Sequence record: PP418985.1
From: Escherichia phage UPWr_E1
Strand: one strand, 5' to 3'
Length of the DNA: 64,000 nt
How positions within the stretch are numbered: position 1 is the stretch's first letter; each line of letters begins with the position of its first letter. The position numbers and the translations under genes are program-made. The notes beneath the pieces were generated by a model. That model was given only the letters and a program-made list of their open reading frames with translations, was not told the DNA's origin and made no database searches. Shown piece by piece: positions 3,933 through 64,000 of this stretch.

Positions 3933-6476
3933 ATGTCTAACAAAATCAATGTATTACATCAAACAGAAGGTCCGGTTTATGGTTCCGTTGGTCGTCCACT
4001 TCTGTTAAAGATTGTTGTCAGTACAGCAGATTTTAAAGATTTTATAGCAGAATGGAAGCTGAACGGTGTAAATGTGCCAGCAGAACAAATTTCCGACGCG
4101 GATCAGTCTCTGTATATTGAGGAAATGCGAGAAAATCAATTTGGTACATATACATGTCACATTAAACTGAAAGACGAACCACAGGTCGGTGTAGATATTA
4201 AGCCTATTCTTGTACAGCGTAGATTTTTTATTGCACCGCAAGATCAGTCTCCGACGTATATTAAAAAACGAATCGGCGAAGAATTAACCCTATTCGCAAC
4301 ACCAGCAATTGAACTAGGTCAACACCCAGAGTTTCAATGGTATCGAAATCATATTCCGGTAGAACCAGAAAAAATCGAGGACAACCGAACCGTTCATATT
4401 GCCCGTGTTGGTCTTATTGATTTTGGCAATTATACGTGTCGTGTTACTGTCCGTGGTGAACCAGCATCACAATATTGGATTAATCCAATTATTGTAGAAA
4501 AGAATGATACCCCTCCTGTAGTGCATCTTAGCGAAGAATATCCTAGCTCTATTACAGTAGCAGAGGATTCAGCGGTACATCTCAATGTACTTGTTACATC
4601 AGATGATAAAGTATCGCCTATTGAGTATACGTGGATTCATAACGGTAGGATTGTTATCGAAGAAAACGGAAACTCTTTGGCAATTCCGCATATTCGAAAA
4701 GATCAGGAAGGTATCTGGCGTCTTGAGGTAAAACAAGGTGACACTACGGTGTATTCTAAAGATTGTCATATTGAGGTTGATAGTCAACCATTCTTTAGGA
4801 TCACACGTCAACCGCAAACTCTTAACGTGTCTGGCGGTGCTTTGGGTTTATTCAGCGTTGATTATAGAACAAACTATTCACCTGTAAAGATCCAGTGGTA
4901 TCGTAAAAAGAATACAGAACAGGAGTTTACACCAATTGTAGGTGAGACTAATAAAGATCTTCATATTACACCAGCTACTACTGAATTAAACCGAGCACGC
5001 TACAAAGCTCGTATCACGTATGGCACAGACCAATACAGAGATTCAGAAGAAGCTGAATTGCTAGTAGGTGAAGCATTAACTATTAGAATCACCAAACAAC
5101 CACAAGCTCTACAAAACGTCCGAGTTTCTTCCTCACAGACGATCACTTGTGAAGCTGAAACAAACTATGAACATTATCGCTTAGATTATCAGTGGTATAA
5201 AGATAACGAATTAATGCCAGGCAAAACATCTAATGTATTGCACTTCTCATCAATCAAAAAGACAGATGAGGGGCAATATAAGTGTATTGCATCAATGGGT
5301 ATTTCTGGTCATCGAATTACCGCAGAATCATCACCAGCACAGGTGACAGTAGACAATTCAAAGGCATCACTGACTATCACTAAACAGCCAACTGGTGCAA
5401 CAATTCGCACTGGTGGGTCGTGGTCTATTTCGGTCGAAGCAACATCAAACGATGCACTACCGATTCGCTATCGCTGGTTTAAAGACGGCGAAGATCTATT
5501 CCCACAAGGCGTTGAACAAAAAAACGTTTACGGTGAAGACCATGCTCAACCTGATTCGACTGGTGTATATACTTGTCGCGTTTCGGTTGGTTTTGGTGAT
5601 CACCGAGCGTCTCAAATGTCACATCCAGCAAGGGTGCTAATTAGCGATAATGTGGAAATTGTGCCGAATGACTTACAGGTCACCGCACATCCTCATGATA
5701 ATGACGTTAAGTATAATCAGCGTGTTATCTTAACAGCAAGATCTCAAAATAGCATCGGGTTAAAACCACATATTCAATGGAAAAAGGATGGTGTTGCTAT
5801 TCCGGGTGCAAATTCAGAGACTTTAGTCATTGAGCACGCGAAACCATTGGATGCAGGGGTTTACACCGCAGATATTACCGCAGCAGAAAAAACGGTAACA
5901 ACCAATCCGGCTACAGTTACTGTAGCAGAGCACAGCAATATTAATATCTTAAAACATCCAGTGGATGTGGTTGCAAAAGAAGGACAAACCACCGACATTG
6001 TATTGGAAGCTCATGCGGAACATTCTGACGGTGAAACCGAAGTTAGTTATCAGTGGCATAAAATTAAAGATGGCGTAGACACTGAAATAAGAGATGCAAC
6101 AAATAAAACTTTAGTTATCCCTCATGCACAGATCAGCAAGCAAGCTCATCAAGCGACCTATTACGCCGAGATAAAAGAAGAGAATGGACACGTTAAACAT
6201 AGCGAAAAAGTTCGAGTGGTGTTTACTACCGCGAAATTAAAACGCTATGTTCACCCGATCCCGTGGCGACGTACATCCTTCCAGTATCAAGGCTATTGGG
6301 TTATGGATGAGATTGATCGCTGTAATCGTGAAGGGCTTAACTGGCTTGAGGACTTTACGCACACCAAATATCCAGAAGAGATCGAAACTATTGCTGCATC
6401 ATTGCATCATTATTCAAATACTCATGTATTAGAATCTCGTAATGGTTATCTGGTTGATGGTACTCAACTATTTTAA
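3933..6476 (+). CDS. hoc: Hoc-like capsid decoration protein with ~7-8 Ig-like repeats and a shared C-terminal domain
   Basis: AGAGGA RBS; repeated W-Y/F-[KR]...G-x-Y-x-C Ig-like motifs (GNYTCRVTV, GQYKCIAS, GVYTCRVSV); C-terminal RYVHPIPWRRTSF...ESRNGY; hoc position. Confidence 0.7.
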   Translation: MSNKINVLHQTEGPVYGSVGRPLLLKIVVSTADFKDFIAEWKLNGVNVPAEQISDADQSLYIEEMRENQFGTYTCHIKLKDEPQVGVDIKPILVQRRFFIAPQDQSPTYIKKRIGEELTLFATPAIELGQHPEFQWYRNHIPVEPEKIEDNRTVHIARVGLIDFGNYTCRVTVRGEPASQYWINPIIVEKNDTPPVVHLSEEYPSSITVAEDSAVHLNVLVTSDDKVSPIEYTWIHNGRIVIEENGNSLAIPHIRKDQEGIWRLEVKQGDTTVYSKDCHIEVDSQPFFRITRQPQTLNVSGGALGLFSVDYRTNYSPVKIQWYRKKNTEQEFTPIVGETNKDLHITPATTELNRARYKARITYGTDQYRDSEEAELLVGEALTIRITKQPQALQNVRVSSSQTITCEAETNYEHYRLDYQWYKDNELMPGKTSNVLHFSSIKKTDEGQYKCIASMGISGHRITAESSPAQVTVDNSKASLTITKQPTGATIRTGGSWSISVEATSNDALPIRYRWFKDGEDLFPQGVEQKNVYGEDHAQPDSTGVYTCRVSVGFGDHRASQMSHPARVLISDNVEIVPNDLQVTAHPHDNDVKYNQRVILTARSQNSIGLKPHIQWKKDGVAIPGANSETLVIEHAKPLDAGVYTADITAAEKTVTTNPATVTVAEHSNINILKHPVDVVAKEGQTTDIVLEAHAEHSDGETEVSYQWHKIKDGVDTEIRDATNKTLVIPHAQISKQAHQATYYAEIKEENGHVKHSEKVRVVFTTAKLKRYVHPIPWRRTSFQYQGYWVMDEIDRCNREGLNWLEDFTHTKYPEEIETIAASLHHYSNTHVLESRNGYLVDGTQLF

Positions 6477-6482
6477 TATTAT

Positions 6483-6502
6483 TGGTCGCCCTTCGGGGCG
6501 AC
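6483..6502 (+). other. stem-loop GGTCGCCC-TTCG-GGGCGACC between the two hoc-like genes (no T-run)
   Basis: perfect 8-bp stem with UUCG tetraloop; lies inside the ORF-track N-terminal extension of the next gene. Confidence 0.5.
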
Positions 6503-6520
6503 CTTAACGGAGTTATTTTT

Positions 6521-7753
6521 ATGGCATTTACAGTAGCACTAAAATCAAATAAAAAATGTTTCCTTGCTGGCGATACATTTAAATTAACGGCTACATTAGC
6601 TGGGGTGGAAGATGGTCCGGTCCCATCAAATGTTACCTATGCATGGACTAAAAATGATCAGCCAATTGAAAATGAATCAAATGTATTAACGGTCTCTAAC
6701 GCAACAGCCGAGAGCGCCGGAAAATATAAAGTATCCGTTACTGACACAGACACACAAGAAGTGGTAGAATCTGCGGTTGTGTCAATGGCAGAAGCAGAAT
6801 TAGTAGTTAAAATTAATCATCCATCTAGCTACGTCGCATTCGATGAGGCGGTAGAATTAACAACTACGGTTTCATATTCAACCGGATTTGCACCGTCTAG
6901 CAATTACCAGTTGCATTATAAATGGGAACAAGATCAAACAAATTTAAACCATAGCGAAAGCACATTATCGATCAGCAACTTCGTCGATGACAACAATGGC
7001 GTTTATAAGGTTACTGTATGGGGCGAGTCAGAAACATCAGCGGACAGCGCCAGTGTTAAACTTGCAGCAATCTCTATATCTGTAGTTGAAGATGTACCAC
7101 TGGCAAAAACCGTCGCAATGGGTAAACCGATCACACTACCTTATCGCACGATGGGTGTTTCTATCGGTGACACGTCAGGTCTTCCGGCATTATCAACTAA
7201 ACAGTCATGGTATTTGCAGCGAGAAGGACAACCGCGCCCGACACTGATCGGGAGTGAGGTTGGGGAGGCATTGGAAGGGTTTTCTATCATGCCTAACGGC
7301 TATTTGCACAAAGAAGCTGCAACAATGGACGACACCGCTAACTTTTGGTGTATCGTAGAGTTGCTTCAAGAAATTGACGGGCAGCCAGTACCAATCGAAG
7401 AAAAAGGTAGCTCTCATTGCGCACTGGAAGTTGTAGAATCACTTCATAAGATGTTCCGGTATGTGCACCCGATCCCGTGGCGCAAAACTTCGTTTATCTA
7501 TATTGGATGGTGGGTATTCGACGAGATCGTTAAATTCAATGAGGCAGGGTTAGAATGGAGAAACCGTGAAGTTTACGAGGATAGCAAATATGCAAGCGAC
7601 ATCGAGACGATCGCGGCAGCGGAAGAAAAATATAGTGATTGCACTTGCATGGAATCTCGCAATGGTTTCATGTATCAGTCCAAAGAGTTCCATAAACTGG
7701 ACCGAGAGACATTAGAGCGTGTCCTGCGCATTCGTGAAACGCCTCCTGCTTAA
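6521..7753 (+). CDS. Hoc-like paralog (shorter Ig-like array, same C-terminal domain)
   Basis: GGAG RBS then ATG 6521; Ig-like motifs (GKYKVSVTD, GVYKVTVWG); C-terminal FRYVHPIPWRKTSF...ESRNGF, paralogous to 3933..6476. Confidence 0.65.
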   Translation: MAFTVALKSNKKCFLAGDTFKLTATLAGVEDGPVPSNVTYAWTKNDQPIENESNVLTVSNATAESAGKYKVSVTDTDTQEVVESAVVSMAEAELVVKINHPSSYVAFDEAVELTTTVSYSTGFAPSSNYQLHYKWEQDQTNLNHSESTLSISNFVDDNNGVYKVTVWGESETSADSASVKLAAISISVVEDVPLAKTVAMGKPITLPYRTMGVSIGDTSGLPALSTKQSWYLQREGQPRPTLIGSEVGEALEGFSIMPNGYLHKEAATMDDTANFWCIVELLQEIDGQPVPIEEKGSSHCALEVVESLHKMFRYVHPIPWRKTSFIYIGWWVFDEIVKFNEAGLEWRNREVYEDSKYASDIETIAAAEEKYSDCTCMESRNGFMYQSKEFHKLDRETLERVLRIRETPPA

Positions 7754-8467: not shown

Positions 8468-8905
8468 ATGAAATTCCGCAAAAACCACGTAGCAATGAAA
8501 AAAGCAATGTTTGAAGCATTCAAAGCAGTTGATCAGGGCGGTGTTACTCTGATTGAGCAAATTAATGTTGATGTTTGGCAGTCTCCGGCGATCACTTGCT
8601 CACGTCTGGCGACGGCTGGTCTTCTGAATGTTCACAGCTCTACAGCATACGACGAAGCATTGCAAGTTATTAAGGCTTTCGCTGGCGACGTTACCAGCAA
8701 GTGGGTCTATGAGAATAAAGGTGAAATTGCGGTTGCTCACGTAGGCAACAATATCCAGATGGAAATCAAGATTAAGGAAGGGTCTAAACGCAATCAGATG
8801 CTTGTTCGCTTCCAGCCATACAAAACTAACGTAGTGCCGGATGATCTGGTCATCTCTAAGAGTAATGTTACCATTCGCCGAAATCAGATCGTTATCAACA
8901 AATAA
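8468..8905 (+). CDS. hypothetical protein
   Basis: AGAGGTGA RBS; 145 aa; followed by a strong terminator. Confidence 0.6.
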   Translation: MKFRKNHVAMKKAMFEAFKAVDQGGVTLIEQINVDVWQSPAITCSRLATAGLLNVHSSTAYDEALQVIKAFAGDVTSKWVYENKGEIAVAHVGNNIQMEIKIKEGSKRNQMLVRFQPYKTNVVPDDLVISKSNVTIRRNQIVINK

Positions 8906-8938: not shown

Positions 8939-8992
8939 GTATATATCATTAACATAATTTTAGTTTACATATGCACATTATTAATACAGTTT

Positions 8993-9030
8993 GATTAAAT
9001 TATGATCAAAACGAAGAAAGATCTTTAGAA
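8993..9030 (+). repeat. intergenic repeat copy A (GATTAAATTATGATCAAAACGAAGAAAGATCTTTAGAA)
   Basis: 5' 25 nt repeated at 9142-9166; 3' part CAAAACGAAGAAAGATCTTTAGAA identical to 46843-46866. Confidence 0.7.
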
Positions 9031-9141
9031 CATAGAAAATGTATCTTTGATTAATTATTAATCACCACATATTGTAACGCAAATGTTATACTCCGTAGGA
9101 GTTCGCGAAGCGATATCCTTTTGTGTAGTTTTTACATATAT

Positions 9142-9197
9142 GATTAAATTATGATCAAAACGAAGACTTATCTTATAGAATAATAAAAATTTGTTTC
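9142..9197 (+). repeat. intergenic repeat copy B
   Basis: GATTAAATTATGATCAAAACGAAGA ... TAGAATAATAAAAATTTGTTTCG; 3' 23 nt identical to 46862-46884. Confidence 0.7.
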
Positions 9198-9319
9198 GAA
9201 CATTTATTAATCAATTACTAGAAGTGTTTTATTGCTCGCTGTGCTCGCTTCCGCTACGCGGATACTTGTATTTGTTATTAACTTGTAGTATGATATTGCT
9301 TTCTATGGAGGAAAATATT

Positions 9320-9907
9320 ATGTTTGACCAGTTACAAGATCTATTTGGAGTAAAACCACTTCGTAGATGTGCTTTAATCGGCTCTAGAAAAGCGCCTAGC
9401 GACATTTTGATAATGGCTAGTACCATTGGGAGGGTATTGTCAGAAAATCGCGTTGTAGCGCATTCTGGAGGGGCTTACGGTATGGACAATGCTTTCATGA
9501 AGTATTACGATCCAGATTATAGAAAAATTTTCATTCCAAATTGGAAGTTTTATGACCACAAGCATAACGGTCATGATGTGATTGCATGGCAAACCTTAGA
9601 ACAAAAGAATCTGGCGATGGATGAATTAGAACACGTTTATGATAATCCTCGTTCTATACCGTTATACATGCAAAATTTATTTTCTAGAAATGTTGCTCAA
9701 GTCTTAGGTGAGACACTTGATGATCCTGTAGATTGTGTGTTATTCTGGGCGAAAGAAGTTAATGGAATCGTTTCGGGAGGAACTCGAATTGCTGTTTATG
9801 TTGCCCGTAGACATGGGATACCATGTTTTAACTTATATCATCAAGAAAATAGATCCGCCGTCGAAAAAATCTTGGGCGGATCTGATTTGTCTTGGTTAGA
9901 TATTTAG
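9320..9907 (+). CDS. SLOG-superfamily (DprA/LOG-like) Rossmann-fold protein
   Basis: GGAGGA RBS then ATG 9320; GSRKAP ... HSGGAYGMDNAF resembles the DprA GSR/SGxAxGID motifs; ORF-track start 9191 has no RBS. Confidence 0.55.
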   Translation: MFDQLQDLFGVKPLRRCALIGSRKAPSDILIMASTIGRVLSENRVVAHSGGAYGMDNAFMKYYDPDYRKIFIPNWKFYDHKHNGHDVIAWQTLEQKNLAMDELEHVYDNPRSIPLYMQNLFSRNVAQVLGETLDDPVDCVLFWAKEVNGIVSGGTRIAVYVARRHGIPCFNLYHQENRSAVEKILGGSDLSWLDI

Positions 9908-18376: not shown

Positions 18377-19942
18377 TTAAAAATCCTCTATTTCATCGGG
18401 AGTTTGTTTAAAGCGCGGATCGTTCGCTTCTTCTTCGATCTGTTTCTTCTCGGTGTCCATCTGGTCATCGGTATATTTCAGAATGTCACGCATCACTGTC
18501 TGGTTAGAGAAATACTTACCAATGTAAGGGGCGATACGTTCGATTAGACCGATTCGACGTTCTAAAATTTCCGCGTCTTTAACTTCTGTATAATAAGAGT
18601 CCCGATGGAAAACCACCTTGATATTATTTATTTCACGATCCCAATCGTCTTCCGTAATTACATTTTTGAGAATCAGATTATATTTAAGCGGATCGCGCAA
18701 TACTTCCGAAAACTGTGATTGCAGAGTTCTAATGAATTTCGAAAATTCCAACTCATCGCGAGTAATTTCTGAACCGTCACCGCCAATAACCATATTAGCA
18801 TCGGAGAGATTGCTACGTGACAATGGCACACGCAACGCTTCATACAATTTACGGTTAAAGTAGCGAATATCATCGATATCACTCATACCAGATGCACCAG
18901 GTAAAGTAGTAACATCGGTGATTGCTTTACCATCTCGACGCTGTAACCAGTAGTCCTCTGTCATTGATAGGTTTGCTTGCTGGTTTTTAAGTTTACCAGT
19001 CGATGCATCATAAACAACGCGGTTTTTAAAAGACTGTGCCACTGAGTTCATGTGCTGTGCAGCCTTGCGGTTGTTCATGTTTCCGGTATCAATAAAGAAT
19101 ACTCGACGTTCCGGTGCACGCGTGATACGATAAACGACCATTGCGTCTTCAAGCAATTTAAGCTGGTTTGCTGGCTTAACCGCCCGATGCAAATAACCAA
19201 TGATATATTTATCATCGCAATCCATCAAGCCGCTGTGAGCGTATGTAATAGCACTACGCGGGATTTTAACGCGACTATTGGGAGAGAATACTTGACCACC
19301 CGCGCAATAAGAACTATTGCCTACGGTGTAAATGAAATATTCTTTCGTTGCTTTATAAATTTTACCTTCCGGTGTGTCTTCTGTAATGATCTCGCGAACA
19401 TATTCAAGATTTCGTGGATCAAGCTGGCGTAATTCTACGATACCATCTTTTGGATTTTTACCGATGATTTTATGGAAGAAAATACGCGAATCGACATACC
19501 AGCGACGGAACATATCCTGACCGCGCTTATCAAACTGGATAGTGTTTAAAAGATCTTTAAATTCTTCATGAATGCGCTCTTTCACAGATTCACTAAAACC
19601 AGTCGCCTCAAGATTTAATGAAACAACGTCATGACCTTCTTCAAATACAATCGCATCGTTAACGATATTCTGTACAGCGTTTTCGACTTCATGGTTATTC
19701 ATCAAACCGCGATATGTGTTAACCAATTGCTTAGTTGTACTGATTTTCTGGTCGGTGCTGTAAAATTGCTGGGTAAGAGAGTTCCACGCGCTAGCCGGAG
19801 AGTTATCATTAATTTCTACTTCCGTAGCACCATCATTGTTTTTAGGTGCGGCGATAGACTCTGCTTTATCTTTAATTTGTTCTTCGTATTTGTCGTTGTC
19901 AAAATCAGCCCAACGCGCAAGCATTTTTAATCTACTAAACAT
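18377..19942 (-). CDS. 20: portal vertex protein gp20
   Basis: 521 aa; blocks RRWYVDSRIFFHKII, IIGYLHRAVKPANQLKLLEDA, YRITRAPERR, MTEDYWLQRRDGKA match recalled T4 gp20. Confidence 0.95.
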   Translation of the reverse strand: MFSRLKMLARWADFDNDKYEEQIKDKAESIAAPKNNDGATEVEINDNSPASAWNSLTQQFYSTDQKISTTKQLVNTYRGLMNNHEVENAVQNIVNDAIVFEEGHDVVSLNLEATGFSESVKERIHEEFKDLLNTIQFDKRGQDMFRRWYVDSRIFFHKIIGKNPKDGIVELRQLDPRNLEYVREIITEDTPEGKIYKATKEYFIYTVGNSSYCAGGQVFSPNSRVKIPRSAITYAHSGLMDCDDKYIIGYLHRAVKPANQLKLLEDAMVVYRITRAPERRVFFIDTGNMNNRKAAQHMNSVAQSFKNRVVYDASTGKLKNQQANLSMTEDYWLQRRDGKAITDVTTLPGASGMSDIDDIRYFNRKLYEALRVPLSRSNLSDANMVIGGDGSEITRDELEFSKFIRTLQSQFSEVLRDPLKYNLILKNVITEDDWDREINNIKVVFHRDSYYTEVKDAEILERRIGLIERIAPYIGKYFSNQTVMRDILKYTDDQMDTEKKQIEEEANDPRFKQTPDEIEDF

Positions 19943-19969: not shown

Positions 19970-19988
19970 GCGGGGAACTTCTCCCCGC
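19970..19988 (-). other. intercistronic stem-loop GCGGGGA-n5-TCCCCGC between genes 19 and 20
   Basis: 7-bp inverted repeat; similar GCGGGG/CCCCGC hairpin between genes 18 and 19. Confidence 0.5.
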
Positions 19989-20000
19989 ATGATAATATAT

Positions 20001-20495
20001 TTATTCTACCCAATCGATAGCAAAAGTAACTTCAAACGTTTCAACTTCGTTGTTTTGTTCCCAATCGAGGGTTACTTCACCAACGTTGGTCGGGAAAATA
20101 CCGTACAATGTTTTTTCGCTAGTTGATTCGGTGTTACGGTTAAGTTGACGAACAATAGCTTGTTTCTTATATTGTGCAGGAGTTGCACCAGTGATCGCCG
20201 ATCCAGTACCATGTGTTTGATCGCTCCACGCAACGATAGCATCACGGATCTTGTGTGCGTCATCGTTGAATACAGTGATGGTCCAGTCGTCATATACACG
20301 GTCGCCAGCGATGTTAATTTTACGGTTTTGATAACCTACAGAGATTTTTTCTACGGTTGCAGCCGGGACAGTTGCCGCTTTACACATCAGCTTAAAGTTT
20401 TGCCCCAGATAAGGGATCTCAACTTCAAACAGGTTAGGACGAGCAAAATCGCCAGACTCGAAACCGCGTGTAATATCATTCAAATCGAGTGCCAT
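20001..20495 (-). CDS. 19: tail tube protein gp19
   Basis: 164 aa; FESGDFARPNLF, NRKINIAGDR, DDWTITVFNDDAH match recalled T4 gp19. Confidence 0.95.
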   Translation of the reverse strand: MALDLNDITRGFESGDFARPNLFEVEIPYLGQNFKLMCKAATVPAATVEKISVGYQNRKINIAGDRVYDDWTITVFNDDAHKIRDAIVAWSDQTHGTGSAITGATPAQYKKQAIVRQLNRNTESTSEKTLYGIFPTNVGEVTLDWEQNNEVETFEVTFAIDWVE

Positions 20496-20737
20496 AATTG
20501 ATATTCCTTAATAGAGCGGGGATTTTATCCCCGCTTGATTTAACTTTTAATCTATGCTAATTTACTGATTATGCCTGGTTAGCTGGACCGATAATTTCGT
20601 CAAAATCAGCACCAGTTGCAACAGCAGTGAAATTGAGCATGATATAGTTGATCGATTTTGCTGGTTTGATGAACATACTAGCAACAAATTCGTTACGATC
20701 AATTACATCCGGCGTGTTGTTCGTGGTGTCGCATTGT
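20465..20737. repeat. tandem duplication copy 1 (273 bp, identical to 20738-21010)
   Basis: contains the real gene 19 start and a displaced copy of the last 56 codons of gene 18. Confidence 0.9.
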
Positions 20738-21010
20738 CGCGTGTAATATCATTCAAATCGAGTGCCATAATTGATATTCCTTAATAGAGCGGGGATTTTA
20801 TCCCCGCTTGATTTAACTTTTAATCTATGCTAATTTACTGATTATGCCTGGTTAGCTGGACCGATAATTTCGTCAAAATCAGCACCAGTTGCAACAGCAG
20901 TGAAATTGAGCATGATATAGTTGATCGATTTTGCTGGTTTGATGAACATACTAGCAACAAATTCGTTACGATCAATTACATCCGGCGTGTTGTTCGTGGT
21001 GTCGCATTGT
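20738..21010. repeat. tandem duplication copy 2 (273 bp)
   Basis: contains the real gene 18 3' end and stop plus a second gene 19 start codon that runs into an out-of-frame stop after 21 codons. Confidence 0.9.
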
Positions 21011-22848
21011 ACTCGGAAGTCATAAATGCCACCCAGAGAGCGAATCGTGCTGAGATATTGCGAAACCTCCATACGGAAGGAAGCGCGAGTAAAGTTATCG
21101 TTGTTTTCAAACAGTTTGTATTTGCTTGAATCGCCGATATTCTTTTTCAGCATGTTAAACAGACGACGAACGTTAATGCGGTCAAACGGGCTAGGAACAG
21201 TAGTAGCGGTTTTATCACCCATCAGGATAAACCCTTCACCACCAGCACCAATTACCGGGTTAATTGCAGCCTGATACAGACGATCACGGTGTGCCTTGCG
21301 AGGCTCAATAGCCAGTTTAACTACGTTCATGATCTGACCACGGTTATAACCTGCCGGACTCATCCACGGTTGAGATACCGCATCAGTGCGAGCACACAAA
21401 CCAGCAATATCAGCAGCCAACGGAACCCAGCGGTTTACATCGTTGTATTTGTCATACTGATATTTGTAGTTACCATCAATAACCGCGTAAGTGGTATTAA
21501 TGTTCATGTTGTTGTCTGAATAATTGCTCTTTCCTTCTCGCCATGCGATCAGGTTATCAATTGCGGTAGTGACCGGAATATTAACAACAGTGCTACGCGG
21601 CGGAGAAACCATCACTAAGCAATCCTGACGCTCATCACCGATGGAAACAGCATGTTTCTGTACGGTGGAGAATGCATCACCTTCACCCGCACACGCACCA
21701 GCAATCAGCAGGTTTACATGAATAGACTCACGTTCAGCAAACAGATCCCAGCCTTTCATCATTGCGCCAATAAACGGATCAGCACCAACACCAACACCCG
21801 CAGTTGCGGATTCGTTAGCAGAAACACCACCAACCAAAGAGATGATACCACTGAAACCATCTACCCAGCCCTGAGCGGTTGCATAGATGTACTGACTAGC
21901 ACCACGAGCAAAGAAGTCGTCCATATAGATAGAATTGCCGTAAACGTCTTTATCCCCTTTCAGAGTAGACAGTACATAGGATTCTACCACAACACCATCT
22001 CGACGAACAATAAACGCATATTGATTATCATTCTGCGGTGCATATGGAATCAGGTTGCGTGCTGCGGCACGAGTTCCACCGAACGGATACAGTGTCAATT
22101 CAGGTGCTGCCGCTCCGCTAAACGCGCTACGTGCCAGAATCTCAACTTCCAGAGAGTTACCAATCTCACCAGCATAGATTGCACTTACCGCTGGCATATC
22201 ATACTTTTTGAGCTTAGTCAAAAATTCTTGATTGGTGATATTGGCGCGGGAAGTCTCCAGATCCGTTAAGAGAAGACCGGAATCGGTAACAATTTTAGAA
22301 ATGGTGATCGCCGCATTTGAGTTACCAGTGCCGGAAGTGATTTCTACGGTAAACCCATCCAGATTAGGATACACGCCAACGGATTTAGCCAGAGCAATGA
22401 TTTTCCCGGTTGGGATGAAAATACCTTTAATTTTACCTTCTGTATCTACTTTGGTTACTTTACCAGCGGTTTCAACTTCCTGACGATTGTATTTTACTTT
22501 AATTGAATCGCCTACTTTGTAGTTAGAACCTTCGTTGGTAATATTAAATTCTACGTTACCCGCGAGAGTGGTGGAGTTTTTCGCTTTTTCTGTATTCAGT
22601 ACACGAACAACACGCAGGTCGTTACCATACTGGAGGAAGTTAGCCCCGCTCATGAAATAGTCTGCGGTGTTATTATCCGGCTGACCAAATTTATTAACTA
22701 ATTCAACTTCATTAGTTACTTGAATAATCTGGAAAGCTGGACCCCATTGAAATTTACCTACCAGCGCCGCGCGACCAGTCGCAGATTGTACAATGGTAGT
22801 GGAGAGAGTAGTTTCTTTCGTTTCGAAACCCGGTGATAATAGAGTCAT
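20842..22848 (-). CDS. 18: tail sheath protein gp18
   Basis: 668 aa; MTLLSPG start; GKFQWGPAFQI, NFLQYGNDLRVVR, RWVPLAADIAGLCARTD, VPSPFDRINVRRLFNMLK match recalled T4 gp18. Confidence 0.95.
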   Translation of the reverse strand: MTLLSPGFETKETTLSTTIVQSATGRAALVGKFQWGPAFQIIQVTNEVELVNKFGQPDNNTADYFMSGANFLQYGNDLRVVRVLNTEKAKNSTTLAGNVEFNITNEGSNYKVGDSIKVKYNRQEVETAGKVTKVDTEGKIKGIFIPTGKIIALAKSVGVYPNLDGFTVEITSGTGNSNAAITISKIVTDSGLLLTDLETSRANITNQEFLTKLKKYDMPAVSAIYAGEIGNSLEVEILARSAFSGAAAPELTLYPFGGTRAAARNLIPYAPQNDNQYAFIVRRDGVVVESYVLSTLKGDKDVYGNSIYMDDFFARGASQYIYATAQGWVDGFSGIISLVGGVSANESATAGVGVGADPFIGAMMKGWDLFAERESIHVNLLIAGACAGEGDAFSTVQKHAVSIGDERQDCLVMVSPPRSTVVNIPVTTAIDNLIAWREGKSNYSDNNMNINTTYAVIDGNYKYQYDKYNDVNRWVPLAADIAGLCARTDAVSQPWMSPAGYNRGQIMNVVKLAIEPRKAHRDRLYQAAINPVIGAGGEGFILMGDKTATTVPSPFDRINVRRLFNMLKKNIGDSSKYKLFENNDNFTRASFRMEVSQYLSTIRSLGGIYDFRVQCDTTNNTPDVIDRNEFVASMFIKPAKSINYIMLNFTAVATGADFDEIIGPANQA

Positions 22849-22879: not shown

Positions 22880-25206
<2,327 letters not shown>

Positions 25207-27835: not shown

Positions 27836-29605
27836 TTATACCGGAGAAATTCCAAAGAGGAACTCTTTAATTTGTAGCGGTTGCGCTAATGCTTCTACAG
27901 ATACACCCTTAATACGAATATCGATCCGGTCGCCCTTTTCAATATTTAGGAAAGCACTGGTAGAATAACTGATTAATTCATCAGTTCCATAATGACCATT
28001 TCGTACCTCATGTACAATCTGACCATTTTTAGCAATACCAACTACTAAAGTAGCGTTATGTGCCGCATGTACCGAACAACGGAAAACACAACGGAATAAG
28101 CCTTTGTCGTTAACCGTGACAAGAGATTCGCTCTTAACCATTCCACGCACAGGAACTTCTGCGGTCATATCGTTTAACGGGATTCCTTTGTATTGATCTT
28201 GCCCGTCGAGAGTAACATCAATCTGAGCGGTGTTTTTAAATGCACCAGCCGCCCATGCGACCTGAACCCATTCCCCGTGCTTACGTAGATAATGGAAACC
28301 ATCATCAGGAACGTCTGTTACCTTGCTTGCATTTGATGTGCTCAATGCCTTAACAGTTTTCACGATCCCATCTTGTTCAAGCTGCGTGCTTCCTTCTGGA
28401 TTGCCGTACATGTCGCTTGACAGCTTAATAACCCCAGCGGTTAGACCGGAATCGCGATCGCCGATCATTTGCTCGATATCCTGCACGCTTGCTTCTAAAC
28501 GCCCCTGCGTGTTTTCTACGATTTTCAGGCGACCAGCGATTGTGTGACGCTCGCTATCCGTACCCACTGTATTTGTTATACGTGCAACTTCACCGCGTAG
28601 GCCATCTGCGCCGCTAACACCGACAATAGATTTGAGGTCCACAAATTCCCGTTCTTGATTAGTCAATCGATAATCAATACTTCCAGCGGCTTGAGGATTG
28701 CCAATCTTATTTTCCAAAAGAGTTAACCGAGGACGAATACCAGCATCAACTCCATTGACTTCATCATTAAGCTGAGTATAATCAGACTGCAATTTAGTTA
28801 CTTTAGTACCGATATCAGGAATTGATTCAAACAGAATTGCTTTCTTTACTTCCTGAACTTCGTTTGATATACTAGCAATATTTCGAGTGTTTGTGCGAAG
28901 ACGAAGATAAACATTGTCTTGTGTTGCTAGTGATGTGTCGCCTAGCTCACTGCGCATTTTGTTAACTTGTTTTGTTAGCTCTCCAACGTCAGAATCTTGC
29001 CAGTCGTTTTCCAATTGGCGGATTCTCTGACCGTGGTTGCTTAATGCTTCCGTATTCTGAATTACTCGATATTTGATCCCTGAACCGGAACTACCCGGTT
29101 CAGGAGAACCGTTGATATTGAAGTTAGGGAAAGCGCCTAATTCTTGTTTGATGAAAGAAATATCATCATAGATTGTTCGTGTGCTCGGATCTGCTGCCGG
29201 ACGAACACCAATTTTCTTTCCGGTTTCTGCCAGTTCATCTACTGTGGTTTGTAATGTCCTTGAAGTTTCTCCTAAATTTTCTTCTACAGACTCAACCTTT
29301 GCAATAGTCTGATTGACAATATCAATAATACTACCATCAGCAACCGCGCCTAAAGTAGTTTTAATATCATTAACTGCTGTAACAACTTCGTTAACTTTTG
29401 TTACCGTTGTCTTAGAATTTTCATCCAGACGAACAATATTTTCTTGAATAGCATGAGGGGCGCGGTTAAGCGTCCCCTCATGTCCGGTTTCTGTAGTTGC
29501 TGCGCTTAGACATTCACCATTTTTAATCCAGCTAATAGAATGTTGTCCCTCTCCAGGGACACCATCGACGTTAGGGATCTTTCGAATGTTTAATTGTTCG
29601 ATCAT
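27836..29605 (-). CDS. wac: fibritin (whisker antigen control) with extra C-terminal domain
   Basis: N-terminal VDGVPGEGQHSISWIKNGE matches T4 fibritin; foldon-like GFHYLRKHGEWVQV followed by a further 135 aa. Confidence 0.85.
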   Translation of the reverse strand: MIEQLNIRKIPNVDGVPGEGQHSISWIKNGECLSAATTETGHEGTLNRAPHAIQENIVRLDENSKTTVTKVNEVVTAVNDIKTTLGAVADGSIIDIVNQTIAKVESVEENLGETSRTLQTTVDELAETGKKIGVRPAADPSTRTIYDDISFIKQELGAFPNFNINGSPEPGSSGSGIKYRVIQNTEALSNHGQRIRQLENDWQDSDVGELTKQVNKMRSELGDTSLATQDNVYLRLRTNTRNIASISNEVQEVKKAILFESIPDIGTKVTKLQSDYTQLNDEVNGVDAGIRPRLTLLENKIGNPQAAGSIDYRLTNQEREFVDLKSIVGVSGADGLRGEVARITNTVGTDSERHTIAGRLKIVENTQGRLEASVQDIEQMIGDRDSGLTAGVIKLSSDMYGNPEGSTQLEQDGIVKTVKALSTSNASKVTDVPDDGFHYLRKHGEWVQVAWAAGAFKNTAQIDVTLDGQDQYKGIPLNDMTAEVPVRGMVKSESLVTVNDKGLFRCVFRCSVHAAHNATLVVGIAKNGQIVHEVRNGHYGTDELISYSTSAFLNIEKGDRIDIRIKGVSVEALAQPLQIKEFLFGISPV

Positions 29606-31008
29606 TATTGTACCCTTATAACGTAGTTTAATGCAAGGCTTTTAACGCGAGTTTCGCCAGACGTTCTAACCTGTCTTGCGCTGTCAAAGTCTACTATAGC
29701 ACCCCAATCATCGCCCTTACCGTTTTTATAGTTGGTGTTCCATTGACCACCAATGAGACTAAATGCGCCATTAGCCCATCCACGATAGCGGTTAGCTACA
29801 GGGAATTGACCATTTATCCTTTGCATGGTATCATCTTGATACGTACCAAATCCGCGACCTGGATCTAAGCCTCGACCCCAATCACATCCACGAGCAACAA
29901 GACCGCGCATATCTGGAACAGCGAAATGATCTCCACCATCACCGCCGTATGTAAATCCAATGCGAGAAAACAATACTGGATATTGGTGTTTATTCAACCA
30001 TTGCCCGTTACAGATTTTGAATGCACCGTGATCATTGCTATTGAATGCAGTTAGAATAATTGCACCAATTGGCATACACCATGCATCCATTTCGTTTTTA
30101 GTGGTAAACTGGTTTCCGTCGCCATGTCCATGACGATATACATCACCCGTAACTACACCACCGCTTAGAGACAACACACGAGCATTTGCAGATAGCGCCG
30201 AGTTAGGCTCACCAGAACCGGGATTGTCTGTTAGTTTAACAACGCCAAATTGTCCAGTTGTTGCTTTAGTGTTTGCAAATTTTTGTGCTGATACTACTAC
30301 AGTGTTATCATTACCATCAATCATTTGCTGGGATGATGCAATTTTTACAGTACCCGCCTGATTCTCATTTGCTCGTGCATTAGCAAATGCATAAGGGCTA
30401 ACAGCAAATCCTTCTCGAATAGTCCCGGCAAGCGTTTGTTGGCTTGTCGCGAGTCGTACTAAACCCTCGCGGGATTCTGACGCTGTGTTTTGCTCTGGAA
30501 TCAATCCAGGAACAATCTGAGCAATAGCAGCGTGCATCTTTTTAGGCGTAACTGCCATAGTGTCATCGCTACCGATTTTTGCCGCATCCATAGAACAGAT
30601 TTTAATTGTACCCTGTACGGTTTCAGTTGCTTTCTTCTTCGCGAAGACATGAGTTAATGTATCTGGACCAATTGCGATGTTTGGCGTATCTCCCATAGCT
30701 TCATCATTGTTAGCATAACGAGTGATACCCTTAACAAATTTTGTTGCGTCCGGTCTTGACAGTTTAACAGCTAATGTTTTTGGGGTAACAATTTTAGTTC
30801 CATCCAATCCGTCATCTACTTCTTTTTGCGTAGCAATTTCAGCAATACCCGCTGTTTCTTCGGTTGCCGTTGGAAGACCTGCAATAGCAAACCCCTGAAT
30901 AGCGGCTAATGCCGCTTGTACGTTTTTTATATTGCTAGGCCAATTTCCGGTAGGGTCAAACTTAACATACTGTGCATCGTCTTTTACGTGATTAATAGTG
31001 TTATTCAT
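29605..31008 (-). CDS. 12: short tail fiber protein gp12
   Basis: 467 aa; YVKFDPT, VPDMRGL, LNYVIRV match recalled T4 gp12. Confidence 0.9.
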   Translation of the reverse strand: MNNTINHVKDDAQYVKFDPTGNWPSNIKNVQAALAAIQGFAIAGLPTATEETAGIAEIATQKEVDDGLDGTKIVTPKTLAVKLSRPDATKFVKGITRYANNDEAMGDTPNIAIGPDTLTHVFAKKKATETVQGTIKICSMDAAKIGSDDTMAVTPKKMHAAIAQIVPGLIPEQNTASESREGLVRLATSQQTLAGTIREGFAVSPYAFANARANENQAGTVKIASSQQMIDGNDNTVVVSAQKFANTKATTGQFGVVKLTDNPGSGEPNSALSANARVLSLSGGVVTGDVYRHGHGDGNQFTTKNEMDAWCMPIGAIILTAFNSNDHGAFKICNGQWLNKHQYPVLFSRIGFTYGGDGGDHFAVPDMRGLVARGCDWGRGLDPGRGFGTYQDDTMQRINGQFPVANRYRGWANGAFSLIGGQWNTNYKNGKGDDWGAIVDFDSARQVRTSGETRVKSLALNYVIRVQ

Positions 31009-31018
31009 AATTTACACC

Positions 31019-31663
31019 TTACGCAATACGCTTGAAATAAAATAGTGTTGAACCAAATTTTTCTTCCGTTCCCATTCTGGACCATGCACCATAACCATAA
31101 CGAGCAGGGGAATTTATTTCCCCACGAACGCTAATACCATATTTTTCTACGACCGTTGCTTCGTGTGCGTTTGAATCAATATACTGAATCTCTATTTTAT
31201 CATTACCAGTACCTTTCCGTTCAACTTTAGAAAATAAGATACTTTTGTCTTTCAATTCAGTAAATTTTGCTGCAACTGTCTCGCACAATGCAACATTCGA
31301 CGTTCCAACATTAACAACAAATGGATAACCCAAAACTTCAATTACAACTTTTTTCGCGGCTGGATCGTGTTTATTTGTTACCGTTCCAGTGAAGGACAGA
31401 GTTTCTATTTGTCCTGCCGCTTCCGGCGGTGTTGAATTTGTAGTTACCAATACATCACCAACATTAAGCATAGAAATGCTATACAAGTCATCAATTGCCG
31501 ATTGTACGTTGTTAATAAAAGAACCTTTGCGAGATTGGTCTACGTTTAATCCACCGATTGGGCGAATGTCGCCAATAATGGGGTCTTTCGACCCCGGATC
31601 GTATGAAATGAATGCTGCGTCGCTAGAAAATACACTTGCCTTAGAACGTGTTTTAGAAATCAT
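31019..31663 (-). CDS. 11: baseplate wedge protein gp11
   Basis: 214 aa; C-terminal YGYGAWS...TLFYFKR as in T4 gp11. Confidence 0.85.
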   Translation of the reverse strand: MISKTRSKASVFSSDAAFISYDPGSKDPIIGDIRPIGGLNVDQSRKGSFINNVQSAIDDLYSISMLNVGDVLVTTNSTPPEAAGQIETLSFTGTVTNKHDPAAKKVVIEVLGYPFVVNVGTSNVALCETVAAKFTELKDKSILFSKVERKGTGNDKIEIQYIDSNAHEATVVEKYGISVRGEINSPARYGYGAWSRMGTEEKFGSTLFYFKRIA

Positions 31664-46772: not shown

Positions 46773-46842
46773 AAGAAGTCCTCGTATAGTACCCGTTTTA
46801 TTTATTACTGTATAAAAATATAGTTATTGGTTAAAACATAAC

Positions 46843-46884
46843 CAAAACGAAGAAAGATCTTTAGAATAATAAAAATTTGTTTCG
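46843..46884 (+). repeat. intergenic repeat copy C (CAAAACGAAGAAAGATCTTTAGAATAATAAAAATTTGTTTCG)
   Basis: joins the 3' parts of repeat copies A and B at 9.0-9.2 kb; contains the 10-bp palindrome AAAGATCTTT. Confidence 0.7.
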
Positions 46885-46961
46885 GTTAAAAAGTAGTCAG
46901 TGCCTACGGCACGTCGCAAAGCGACAATTGTTAATAAATATTTTCATTTGAGGAATCAGTA

Positions 46962-47552
46962 ATGTCTAATCTCTTTAACTATGCTAACCCTAGCAACTGG
47001 CAGATCAATATTCCAGATGGACAACTAACAAAAGGCTTTACTTTAAATGCTCAAGGTGTTACACTTCCTGCTATAACCATTCCACCGACTAAGCAAGTTG
47101 CTGGTCAATATGGTTTGGCGGTCGCTGATTATCCGTCTAGTCATGTAGAGTTTGACCCGTTGGTAGTCCGGTTTATTGTCGATGAGCATTTGGAAAGCTA
47201 TCTAAACCTTTACACATGGATGCTTTCTATAGTAGACTACAATAACGGTAACTCCACTGCGTGGAAGGATTCAATGCCGGAAGCCGTTCAAGTTCACATG
47301 ATGGACAATGAACGCCGTAACATTGTATGCACCTTTAACTTTTATGGTTGTTGGTGTTCACAATTGGGGGAACTTGAGTTAACATACACCGATGATATGC
47401 ATGAATCTCTGGTATGTACTGCAATTCTTCCATTTAAAACAATGAGCATTGAACGTGATGGTCAACTGATCGTTCCTCGCCCTGCAATTCAGGCGGCGGA
47501 TCGTCAGCGAGTGGAAGGTATTAAAGCTATGCACCCTGCTTTTAGAAAGTAA
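46962..47552 (+). CDS. 3: tail completion/sheath stabilizer gp3 (by synteny)
   Basis: 196 aa between gene 2 and gene 1; GAGGAA RBS; identity not verified. Confidence 0.5.
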   Translation: MSNLFNYANPSNWQINIPDGQLTKGFTLNAQGVTLPAITIPPTKQVAGQYGLAVADYPSSHVEFDPLVVRFIVDEHLESYLNLYTWMLSIVDYNNGNSTAWKDSMPEAVQVHMMDNERRNIVCTFNFYGCWCSQLGELELTYTDDMHESLVCTAILPFKTMSIERDGQLIVPRPAIQAADRQRVEGIKAMHPAFRK

Positions 47553-48982: not shown

Positions 48983-49007
48983 CCCCGAAAATTTTTCGGG
49001 GTTTTTT
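48983..49007 (+). terminator. rho-independent terminator
   Basis: CCCCGAAAA-t-TTTTCGGGG followed by TTTTTTG. Confidence 0.7.
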
Positions 49008-49018
49008 GTTTTTATGTG

Positions 49019-49047
49019 TTGACAACCATAAACGACTATAGCATAAT
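49019..49047 (+). promoter_or_regulatory. PeSL-like early promoter module 1
   Basis: TTGACA-17-CATAAT, then conserved leader CATATCGAAACGAAACACAC and RBS AGGAGAATCAAA. Confidence 0.6.
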
Positions 49048-49084
49048 GCACATATCGAAACGAAACACACTTAGGAGAATCAAA

Positions 49085-49462
49085 ATGATGATGATGTTTA
49101 AAGATAAATTCGAATGTCACTACACCCGTAACTTTGACTTAGTATCCCGCTACTACATTCATAAAGAAACTGGAACGCAAGTAGTTCTTGAATCTCACAG
49201 CGAAGTAGGATTCGATTCAACAAAAGTAGCAATTAGTGCTCGCTTCTGGGATAACGGCAAATTTGCTTATATCGCTTGGAACGACGACGAAAATGTAATT
49301 ACAGTAGCTTTCGGTGATGACTACTACACTAAAAAGACTTTCGATAGTAAGCCATCAAATGAATACCTGAAAGCGTATGTGCAGCACATGTTCCAACGTG
49401 TTCTGACCGGAATGGAAATCAATGTCATGAAAGACATTGTAGACGAAGTAAAATATTCTTAA
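49085..49462 (+). CDS. hypothetical protein (125 aa)
   Basis: ATG 49085 after the conserved leader RBS; ORF-track start 49016 lies inside the promoter. Confidence 0.6.
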   Translation: MMMMFKDKFECHYTRNFDLVSRYYIHKETGTQVVLESHSEVGFDSTKVAISARFWDNGKFAYIAWNDDENVITVAFGDDYYTKKTFDSKPSNEYLKAYVQHMFQRVLTGMEINVMKDIVDEVKYS

Positions 49463-50984: not shown

Positions 50985-51011
50985 ATTGCCTAAAATTTTT
51001 TAAAAAAGTTG

Positions 51012-51040
51012 TTGACTCCAGGTCCAGCCTATAGCATAAT
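51012..51040 (+). promoter_or_regulatory. PeSL-like early promoter module 3
   Basis: A-tract, TTGACT-17-CATAAT, leader ACACACATCGAAACGAAACACAC. Confidence 0.6.
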
Positions 51041-51086
51041 ACACACATCGAAACGAAACACACTTTCTTAAACGGAGAATCAAATT

Positions 51087-51789: not shown

Positions 51790-51990
51790 ATGGATATTAA
51801 AGAGCAACTTGTATTAGTTCGAGAATCGGCTAAAGACCACGGCATGAGCGAAGAATTTGTTGAATGGTTTATTGATAACAAATTCAATCCAAGCCCAAAT
51901 TCGACTTTTAACTATTTGGCTATGTCCATTATGTGGGAAGGTTGGAAAGGCGCGGTAGAAACTGCCTTAAAAATTATGAAAAAAGACTAA
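51790..51990 (+). CDS. hypothetical protein (66 aa)
   Basis: GAGGTGA RBS. Confidence 0.5.
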   Translation: MDIKEQLVLVRESAKDHGMSEEFVEWFIDNKFNPSPNSTFNYLAMSIMWEGWKGAVETALKIMKKD

Positions 51991-51997
51991 AAAGTTG

Positions 51998-52026
51998 TTG
52001 ACACGCGAGAGGGTGTATAGCATAAT
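51998..52026 (+). promoter_or_regulatory. PeSL-like early promoter module 5
   Basis: TTGACA-17-CATAAT; hairpin GGGTGTA-tagcataa-TACACCC over the -10; leader CATCGAAACGAAACACAC. Confidence 0.6.
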
Positions 52027-52064
52027 ACACCCATCGAAACGAAACACACTAAGGAGTATCAAAA

Positions 52065-63906: not shown

Positions 63907-63930
63907 GCCATCCGAAAGGGTGGCTTTTTT
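63907..63930 (+). terminator. rho-independent terminator
   Basis: GCCATCC-gaaa-GGGTGGC followed by TTTTTTCG. Confidence 0.75.
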
Positions 63931-63942
63931 CGTTTTTAGGTG

Positions 63943-63971
63943 TTGACAACCGGAATAGGGTATAGCATAAT
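63943..63971 (+). promoter_or_regulatory. PeSL-like early promoter module 7 (gene start lies beyond window end)
   Basis: TTGACA-17-CATAAT, then leader CACACATCGACAACAAAGGAGAATCAAA. Confidence 0.6.
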
Positions 63972-64000
63972 GCACACATCGACAACAAAGGAGAATCAAA

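What the first reader, a model, noticed from the sequence alone, without database searches (positions are those of the whole stretch)
20465..21010. Perfect 273-bp tandem duplication spanning the gene 18 / gene 19 junction
Positions 20465-20737 and 20738-21010 are identical. The unit runs from inside the gene 19 5' end to inside the gene 18 3' end, so the locus holds intact gene 18 and gene 19 plus a second copy of the intergenic hairpin, RBS and gene 19 start codon (a 21-codon fusion peptide) and a displaced copy of the last 56 codons of gene 18. Perfect identity indicates either a very recent duplication or an assembly artifact.
Basis: seen in the sequence. Interest (0 to 1): 0.6.

Follow-up and report, generated by a model that had tools for sequence, protein, structure and literature searches.

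The report
Perfect 273-bp duplication, probably assembly artefact
A T4-like phage genome carries two identical back-to-back copies of a 273-base stretch across the tail-sheath/tail-tube gene boundary; no relative has it, and it is most likely a leftover overlap from genome assembly rather than biology.

Summary
Window 20465-20737 and 20738-21010 are identical (273 bp, 2.0 copies, 0 mismatches), and the junction has no microhomology. The window is a Krischvirus (RB49/JSE-like T4 relative), with genes 17, 18, 19 and 20 on the minus strand. Genes 18 (sheath) and 19 (tube) are both intact. The extra copy adds a second intergenic hairpin, RBS and gene 19 ATG, giving a 21-codon out-of-frame ORF, plus a start-less copy of the last 55 codons of gene 18. 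All 58 close relatives in GenBank, two metagenome contigs encoding the identical gp19, and two IMG/VR contigs hold a single copy. The novel junction is absent from every collection searched. Deleting one copy restores exact colinearity with phage JSE. Documented T4 duplications and deletions carry 3-13 bp of microhomology at their joints; this one has none, as expected for a blind join. A 273-bp perfect repeat is also a good substrate for T4-type recombination, so it should be unstable. Best explanation (about 0.68): an untrimmed overlap between contig ends left in when a circularly permuted genome was closed, rotated or concatenated. Main rival (about 0.28): a real, very recent, neutral duplication in the sequenced clone. 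Only reads or PCR can decide. Low interest.

The parts
20738..21010 (-). Copy of the 273-bp unit that comes first on the coding (minus) strand. It holds 1 nt plus the last 55 codons of the intact gene 18, the TAA stop, the 73-nt intergenic region, and the first 31 nt of a gene 19 start that runs into the junction.
20465..20737 (-). Copy that comes second on the coding strand. It holds the displaced, start-less gene 18 3' fragment, the intergenic region, and the first 31 nt of the intact gene 19.
20737..20738 (.). Novel junction (...GTCGCATTGT|CGCGTGTAAT... on the plus strand). It has 0 bp of microhomology and 0/10 identities within +-5 nt of the two parental breakpoints. It is absent from all collections searched.
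20842..22848 (-). Gene 18, tail sheath, intact at 668 aa. Its 3' end lies in the 20738-21010 copy.
   Evidence: Pfam sheath domains on the homologue
20001..20495 (-). Gene 19, tail tube, intact at 164 aa. Its 5' end lies in the 20465-20737 copy.
20703..20768 (-). 21-codon ORF created by the duplication. It has 10 codons of gene 19, then reads out of frame through gene 18 sequence: MALDLNDITRDNATPRTTRRM*. It is preceded by the duplicated RBS (AAGGA).
20569..20736 (-). Displaced copy of the last 55 codons of gene 18 plus the stop codon. It has no start of its own in frame with upstream translation; an internal Met would give at most a 35-aa ORF (20569-20676).
20514..20536 (.). Intergenic 18/19 stem-loop, copy next to the true gene 19. 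On the mRNA it reads GCGGGGAU-AAA-AUCCCCGC. The 90-nt fold is -21.1 kcal/mol, z = -3.45. The stem is conserved and the loop varies among relatives.
20787..20809 (.). Intergenic 18/19 stem-loop, duplicated copy directly after the gene 18 stop codon.
22880..22887 (-). T4-type late promoter motif TATAAATA upstream of gene 18. The unit itself contains none, so the duplication adds no promoter.

Best explanation
The second copy is most likely not present in the phage DNA. T4-type phages have circularly permuted, terminally redundant genomes, so an assembler sees a circle, breaks it at an arbitrary place, and leaves the same sequence at both ends of the contig. Adjacent contigs can overlap in the same way. 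If the ends are then joined, or the sequence is rotated or concatenated, without trimming the overlap, the result is an exact head-to-tail duplication. It has exactly two copies and 100% identity, and it sits at an arbitrary position relative to genes with no homology at the joint. That is what is seen here. Shown: the duplication, its exactness, the blunt joint, and its absence from all relatives. Inferred: that it arose in silico.
For: (1) There are exactly 2.0 copies with 0/273 mismatches and no spacer. (2) Microhomology at the joint is 0 bp, and 0/10 bases are identical within +-5 nt. Random position pairs 273 bp apart in this genome give 0 bp in 54% of cases, so this is the expected result of a blind join. 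By contrast, real T4 rearrangement joints carry short homologies: 6-10 bp at segmental amplification boundaries (PMC9391042) and 3-13 nt at all 18 unique deletions (PMC8262927). (3) All 58 close relatives span 1428 = 1701-273 bp. The 80-nt junction probe matches relatives only as two pieces 273 bp apart. Two metagenome contigs encoding the identical gp19 have a 72-nt 18/19 gap, and two IMG/VR contigs are single copy. The junction is absent from IMG/VR, JGI metagenome contigs and GTDB genomes. (4) Deleting one copy restores one continuous alignment to JSE across the site. (5) The breakpoints fall at arbitrary places, inside codon 11 of gene 19 and at the third base of a gene 18 codon. They are not at the hairpin, a repeat or a divergence boundary. 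(6) The artefact class is documented. Turner et al. [quoted passage not shown] The CheckV paper says assemblers break a circular template at a random location and leave a repeat at the contig start and end (PMC8116208). (7) T4-type homologous recombination works on homologies of under 50 to about 150 bp. A real 273-bp perfect tandem repeat with no selected content should therefore be lost quickly.
Against: No reads are available, so the in-silico origin is inferred and not shown. At 273 bp, the length is not one of the de Bruijn k-mer sizes (55/77/99/127/141) that mark the most common form of this artefact. It requires an overlap-type assembler, a long-read or hybrid assembly, or manual joining of contigs. 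The rest of the window is a clean consensus, with 59/59 reference genes full length and in a single frame, so there is no independent sign of a sloppy assembly. The repeat lies inside the window and not at a record end, and the source record could not be found, so I could not check whether it was rotated. A phage stock grown from a single plaque could carry a real new duplication at high frequency.
Confidence: 0.68

Rival explanations
1. This is a real, very recent, selectively neutral tandem duplication in the sequenced phage clone. It would have been made by homology-independent illegitimate joining during replication or repair, such as a topoisomerase- or end-joining-type event, and fixed by the single-plaque bottleneck before sequencing. 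Both genes remain intact. The only products are a 21-aa peptide and about 200 nt of extra untranslated RNA with a second hairpin ahead of gene 19.
For: Both copies share the same 4 differences from JSE, so the event is lineage specific and recent. Genes 18 and 19 are intact, and the extra start terminates after 21 codons well before the true gene 19 RBS, so the cost should be small. An extra 273 bp is 0.17% of a roughly 165-kb headful-packaged genome. T4 is known to form tandem duplications. Deletions without minihomology were seen in a uvsX-deleted T4 background, so blunt joints are possible. The length is not a k-mer size, and the assembly is otherwise clean.
Against: Microhomology is zero, whereas wild-type T4 joints carry 3-13 bp. 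The unit holds no complete gene, so nothing maintains it against efficient recombination between 273-bp repeats. It is absent from every relative and every collection searched. A new duplication in a randomly picked plaque is rare a priori (inference).
Confidence: 0.28
2. This is a real duplication kept by selection because it changes expression of the late tail operon. A second stem-loop would attenuate or stabilise the transcript between sheath and tube genes. Alternatively, a decoy RBS and leader peptide would tune the gp19:gp18 ratio.
For: The unit carries the complete intergenic control region: a hairpin with z = -3.45 and a stem conserved among relatives, an RBS and a start codon. No promoter is added, so any effect would be post-initiation.
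Against: No relative has it among 58 close genomes and several metagenome contigs. Perfect identity means there has been no time for selection to be visible. The breakpoints are arbitrary and drag along 166 nt of gene 18 coding sequence that serves no obvious purpose. Nothing tested here supports a benefit.
Confidence: 0.03
3. The repeat is a true physical direct terminal repeat of the virion DNA, with fixed genome ends, that ended up internal after the record was rotated.
For: Turner et al. describe true terminal repeats that end up in the middle of deposited sequences.
Against: The phage is a Krischvirus in the Straboviridae. From established knowledge, T4-type phages package by the headful and are circularly permuted, without fixed ends. 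Fixed ends inside the gene 18/19 coding region of the late operon are implausible, and no relative record begins or ends here.
Confidence: 0.01

Closest known systems
Untrimmed contig-end overlap in assemblies of circular or circularly permuted phage genomes (described in Turner et al. 2021, PMC8785237, and the CheckV paper, PMC8116208)
   Same: There are exactly two identical copies, head to tail. The position is arbitrary relative to genes, the joint has no homology, and related genomes lack it.
   Different: The length of 273 bp is not a de Bruijn k-mer length. The repeat is internal to the sequence rather than at its two ends, so an extra step (closing, rotating or concatenating) has to be assumed.
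T4 microhomology-mediated segmental amplifications and deletions (dmd-tifA amplification, Srikant et al. 2022, PMC9391042; minihomology recombination, Wu et al. 2021, PMC8262927)
   Same: It is a head-to-tail tandem repeat in a T4-type genome, and a lineage-specific, recent event.
   Different: Those joints retain one copy of a 3-13 bp homology, whereas this joint has 0 bp. Their units contain a selected gene, are 1 kb or longer, and are often present in more than 2 copies. This unit contains no complete gene and has exactly 2 copies.
T4 Hp17 amplification of the gene 16-19 region (Wu, Wu & Black 1991, as summarised in PMC10893049)
   Same: It is in the same genomic neighbourhood, and one breakpoint lies in gene 19.
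   Different: Hp17 units arise by recombination between the gene 16 pac sequence and a homologous box in gene 19. They span gene 17 and are selected for more TerL. Here the partner breakpoint is in the gene 18 3' end, no homology box exists, and gene 17 is not included.
PeSL-mediated modular shuffling in RB49-type phages (Arbiol et al. 2010, PMC2839356)
   Same: It occurs in the same phage genus. The intergenic hairpin has the GGGG...CCCC stem typical of PeSL stem-loops.
   Different: PeSL exchanges occur between promoter/stem-loop cassettes in hyperplastic regions. The breakpoints here are in coding sequence, 50-200 nt from the hairpin. That paper's inverse-PCR control in the virion module (g17) was negative.

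Membership tests
Assembly artefact: unmerged contig-end overlap | The two copies are 100% identical, number exactly two, and are directly adjacent. | tested here: met
   273/273 identical, 2.0 copies, no spacer
Assembly artefact: unmerged contig-end overlap | The joint is blind, with no more flanking homology than chance gives, and sits at an arbitrary position relative to genes and signals. | tested here: met
   0 bp of microhomology, where chance gives 0 bp in 54% of random pairs. The breakpoints are inside codons and not at a hairpin, repeat or mosaic boundary.
Assembly artefact: unmerged contig-end overlap | It is absent from independent assemblies and related genomes. | tested here: met
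   58 close GenBank relatives, 2 metagenome contigs and 2 IMG/VR contigs are all single copy. The junction is absent from three large collections.
Assembly artefact: unmerged contig-end overlap | The overlap length equals the assembler's k-mer. This applies to the de Bruijn form only. | tested here: not met
   The length is 273 bp, against the typical 55/77/99 or 127/141. This excludes the simple SPAdes/MEGAHIT form but not overlap-type, long-read or manual joins.
Assembly artefact: unmerged contig-end overlap | No reads span the junction, and read depth over the unit equals that of the flanks. | not testable with these tools
   No read data. The source record was not found.
T4-type microhomology-mediated tandem duplication | A short homology (3-13 bp) is present at both parental breakpoints, with one copy retained at the joint. 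| tested here: not met
   0 bp; 0/10 identical within +-5 nt.
T4-type microhomology-mediated tandem duplication | The copies are arranged head to tail in tandem. | tested here: met
T4-type microhomology-mediated tandem duplication | The unit contains a gene whose dosage is selected. | tested here: not met
   The unit holds only a gene 18 3' fragment, the intergenic region and 31 nt of gene 19.
Hp17-type gene 16/gene 19 amplification | Recombination occurs between the gene 16 pac sequence and a homologous box in gene 19, and the unit spans gene 17. | tested here: not met
   The unit lies entirely within 20465-21010. No gene 16/gene 19 repeat was found; the only repeat involving the gene 16 3' end pairs with the gene 17 3' end.
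True direct terminal repeat of virion DNA | Fixed physical ends lie at the repeat boundaries. | not testable with these tools
   This needs read-start statistics. The taxonomy (Krischvirus, Straboviridae) and the headful packaging of T4-type phages argue against it.

The most novel reading that the evidence does not exclude
The duplication is real and is maintained in this phage. It would act as a newly born regulatory module, with a second stem-loop plus a decoy RBS and 21-codon leader ORF between the sheath and tube genes that retunes the stoichiometry of the two most abundant tail proteins. It would be a caught-in-the-act example of how intergenic control regions and micro-ORFs arise in conserved virion operons.
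Probability: 0.03. Interest if true: 0.4.

Novelty: not a real feature. Interest (0 to 1): 0.1.

Why it matters
It matters mainly as quality control. If the duplication is an artefact, the deposited genome is 273 bp too long and should be corrected. Gene callers may otherwise annotate a spurious small ORF or a gene 18 fragment, and comparative analyses would score a false structural variant in a core virion operon. If it turns out to be real, it would be a modest example of a homology-independent tandem duplication in a T4-type phage. That is unusual, because documented T4 joints use microhomology, but it would not be a new kind of element.

Tried and rejected
(1) Looking for the source record or an independent assembly of the same strain. 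The best GenBank phage matches are only about 93-98% identical. The exact gp18 is not on record. The exact gp19 occurs on two short metagenome contigs from other strains, both single copy. (2) Searching for the junction elsewhere. A 32-mer and a 20-mer in IMG/VR, and a 28-mer in JGI metagenome contigs and GTDB genomes, all gave zero hits. (3) An apparent coincidence, that an IMG/VR contig seemed to start near the breakpoint, was only a storage-chunk boundary. (4) Hp17-type or other homology-driven recombination was rejected, because neither breakpoint sits at a repeat. (5) PeSL- or hairpin-mediated exchange was rejected, because the breakpoints are not at the stem-loop. (6) A mosaic or recombination boundary, or a strain-mixture contig break, at the breakpoints was rejected. 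The nearest differences from relatives are 20-50 bp away. (7) An unpolished long-read assembly is not supported, because 59/59 reference genes are full length in a single frame. (8) A promoter inside the unit was ruled out: there is no TATAAATA, and sigma-70-like hits are at chance level. (9) Rfam and tRNA scans of the window found nothing. (10) Kumagai et al. 1993 on T4 rII duplication joints could not be read, as it is not held.

Full report
**1. Observation.** Window positions 20465-20737 and 20738-21010 are identical over all 273 bases. The period-273 identity covers exactly 546 bp and does not extend by a single base on either side. Tandem Repeats Finder reports this as the only tandem array in the 64-kb window, with period 273, 2.0 copies, 100% matches and score 1092. 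The repeat finder agrees.

**2. Genomic context.** The window belongs to a Krischvirus, an RB49/JSE/phi1-like T4 relative in the Straboviridae. The locus matches 58 phage records at 95-99% identity, annotated as tail sheath, tail tube and portal. The genes lie on the minus strand:
- gene 17 (TerL), 22883-24709
- gene 18 (sheath, 668 aa), 20842-22848
- gene 19 (tube, 164 aa), 20001-20495
- gene 20 (portal), 18377-19942

A T4-type late promoter motif, TATAAATA, sits at 22887-22880 upstream of gene 18. There is none inside the repeat unit. The source genome itself is not in the GenBank phage collection: the best long match is about 93% identical over 94% of 20 kb. Its exact gp18 is not in the large protein and contig index.

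**3. Anatomy on the coding strand.** The copy met first (21010-20738) contains, in order:
- 1 nt plus the last 55 codons of gene 18, then TAA
- a 73-nt intergenic region with a stem-loop (GCGGGGAU-AAA-AUCCCCGC) and an AAGGA ribosome-binding site
- the first 31 nt of gene 19

The junction falls inside codon 11 of this gene 19 start. Translation continues out of frame through gene 18 sequence and stops after 21 codons (MALDLNDITR|DNATPRTTRRM*, 20768-20703). The second copy (20737-20465) supplies a start-less repeat of the gene 18 C-terminus, the second hairpin and RBS, and the start of the intact gene 19. The only correction is 55 codons plus 1 nt instead of 56. The 90-nt intergenic RNA folds at -21.1 kcal/mol, with z = -3.45 against shuffles. 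Among relatives the stem is conserved and the loop (20523-20527) varies.

**4. Comparison with relatives.**
- All 58 close relatives match the 1701-bp query over 1428 bp, which is exactly 273 bp shorter.
- An 80-nt probe centred on the junction matches them only as two pieces 273 bp apart.
- Two metagenome contigs encoding the identical gp19 have a 72-nt gap between genes 18 and 19.
- Two IMG/VR contigs carrying the wild-type right flank are single copy.
- The junction sequence is absent from IMG/VR (32-mer and 20-mer), from JGI metagenome contigs and from GTDB genomes.
- Removing one copy gives a single continuous alignment to phage JSE across the site.
- Both copies share the same 4 differences from JSE, so the event is specific to this sequence.

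**5. The joint.** In the reconstructed single-copy sequence, the two breakpoints share no homology. Microhomology is 0 bp, and 0 of 10 bases are identical within +-5 nt. Slipped alignments give runs of no more than 5 bases, the same as elsewhere. For 20,000 random pairs of positions 273 bp apart in this genome, 54% also give 0 bp, so this is what a homology-blind join looks like. Real T4 rearrangements look different. Segmental amplification boundaries coincide with 6-10 bp microhomologies (Srikant et al. 2022). All 18 unique CRISPR-escape deletions were flanked by 3-13 nt minihomologies, and joints without homology appeared only in a uvsX-deleted phage (Wu et al. 2021). The known amplification in this neighbourhood, Hp17, needs a homology box shared by the gene 16 pac site and gene 19, and it spans gene 17. 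No such box is involved here. The breakpoints are not at the hairpin, not at any repeat, and not at a divergence boundary against relatives.

**6. Stability.** T4-type homologous recombination acts on homologies of under 50 to about 150 bp. By inference, a 273-bp perfect tandem repeat containing no complete gene would collapse readily and has nothing to select for its retention. A real duplication would therefore have to be extremely recent, for example fixed by the last single-plaque purification.

**7. Best explanation.** The features fit the documented artefact in which an assembler breaks a circular or circularly permuted template at a random place and leaves the same sequence at both contig ends (CheckV paper). 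Turner et al. [quoted passage not shown] I put this at about 0.68. Three points count against it:
- 273 bp is not a de Bruijn k-mer length, so an overlap-type assembler, a hybrid assembly or a manual join must be assumed.
- The rest of the window is a clean consensus, with 59 of 59 reference genes full length and in one frame.
- I have no reads.

**8. Rivals.**
- A real, neutral, very recent duplication is at about 0.28. It is viable, because both genes are intact and the extra ORF ends well before the true gene 19 RBS. The addition is only 0.17% of the genome.
- A selected regulatory duplication is at about 0.03. Nothing supports a benefit, and no relative has it.
- True physical terminal repeats are at about 0.01. 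This is a headful-packaging lineage, and the ends would lie in coding sequence.

**9. Verdict.** The feature is most likely not biological. It can be settled only by read mapping across 20737|20738, by depth over the unit, or by a PCR across 20400-21100 giving about 701 bp versus about 428 bp. Interest is low (0.1).

**10. Other things seen.** The window also contains four PeSL-type early-promoter cassettes, a known feature of RB49-type phages. It has an unexplained 73-nt repeat family and a matching GCGGGG...CCCCGC hairpin after gene 19. A 27-nt repeat joins the acidic C-terminal coding ends of genes 16 and 17.

Noticed in passing
window 49002-49085, 50995-51078, 51981-52064, 63926-63989 (+): There are four copies of a 64-69-nt cassette: an AT-rich stretch, TTGACA, a 17-nt spacer, TATAGCATAAT, and a conserved leader CATCGAAACGAAACACAC. 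They lie upstream of small plus-strand ORFs. They match the published description of PeSL early-promoter cassettes in RB49/phi1 hyperplastic regions (PMC2839356), so they are a known feature.
   Followed up: partly
window 8992-9064, 9141-9213, 46828-46900 (+): There are three copies of a roughly 73-nt intergenic repeat with an invariant core, TGRTTAAA..AT.A.CAAAACGAAGA...ATCTT.TAGAA.A...AAAAT.T.T. Two copies are 149 bp apart between ORFs 8468-8905 and 9191-9907. The third is upstream of the ORF at 46962. It has no Rfam match, and its function is unexplained. It may be a middle or early regulatory leader.
   Followed up: partly
window 19970-19988 (-) and 20516-20534 / 20789-20807: The stem-loops after gene 18 and after gene 19 use the same GCGGGG...CCCCGC stem with different loops. 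In relatives the gene 18/19 stem is conserved while the loop bases (20523-20527) differ in nearly every genome compared. The GGGG...CCCC stem resembles PeSL stem-loops but has no early promoter attached.
   Followed up: partly
window 22954-22980 and 24732-24758 (-): A 27-nt direct repeat, 85% identical, links the 3' ends of gene 17 (TerL) and gene 16 (TerS). The two copies encode similar acidic tails, LDEMGDEYA and MDEIEDEEA. In T4 the gene 16 3' end is the preferred pac site and recombines with a box in gene 19. Here the only partner found is in gene 17. Whether this means anything for packaging or amplification is unknown.
   Followed up: partly
window 9191-9907 (+): The window has one continuous 238-aa ORF where the closest annotated relative, SSG23, lists two overlapping CDSs: a 53-aa hypothetical protein and a 195-aa DprA-like protein. 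Both map to the same frame in the window. This suggests a frameshift or annotation split in SSG23, or a fusion here.
   Followed up: no
window 3933-7750 and 27839-31663: Against the nearest relative, SSG23, most virion proteins are 96-100% identical. An 846-aa protein (69%), the Hoc-like protein (66%), fibritin (79%), the collar fibre (71%) and a baseplate wedge subunit (72%) are much more divergent, and the gp18 middle region lowers that protein to 92%. This is typical mosaicism of surface-exposed and host-range modules.
   Followed up: no
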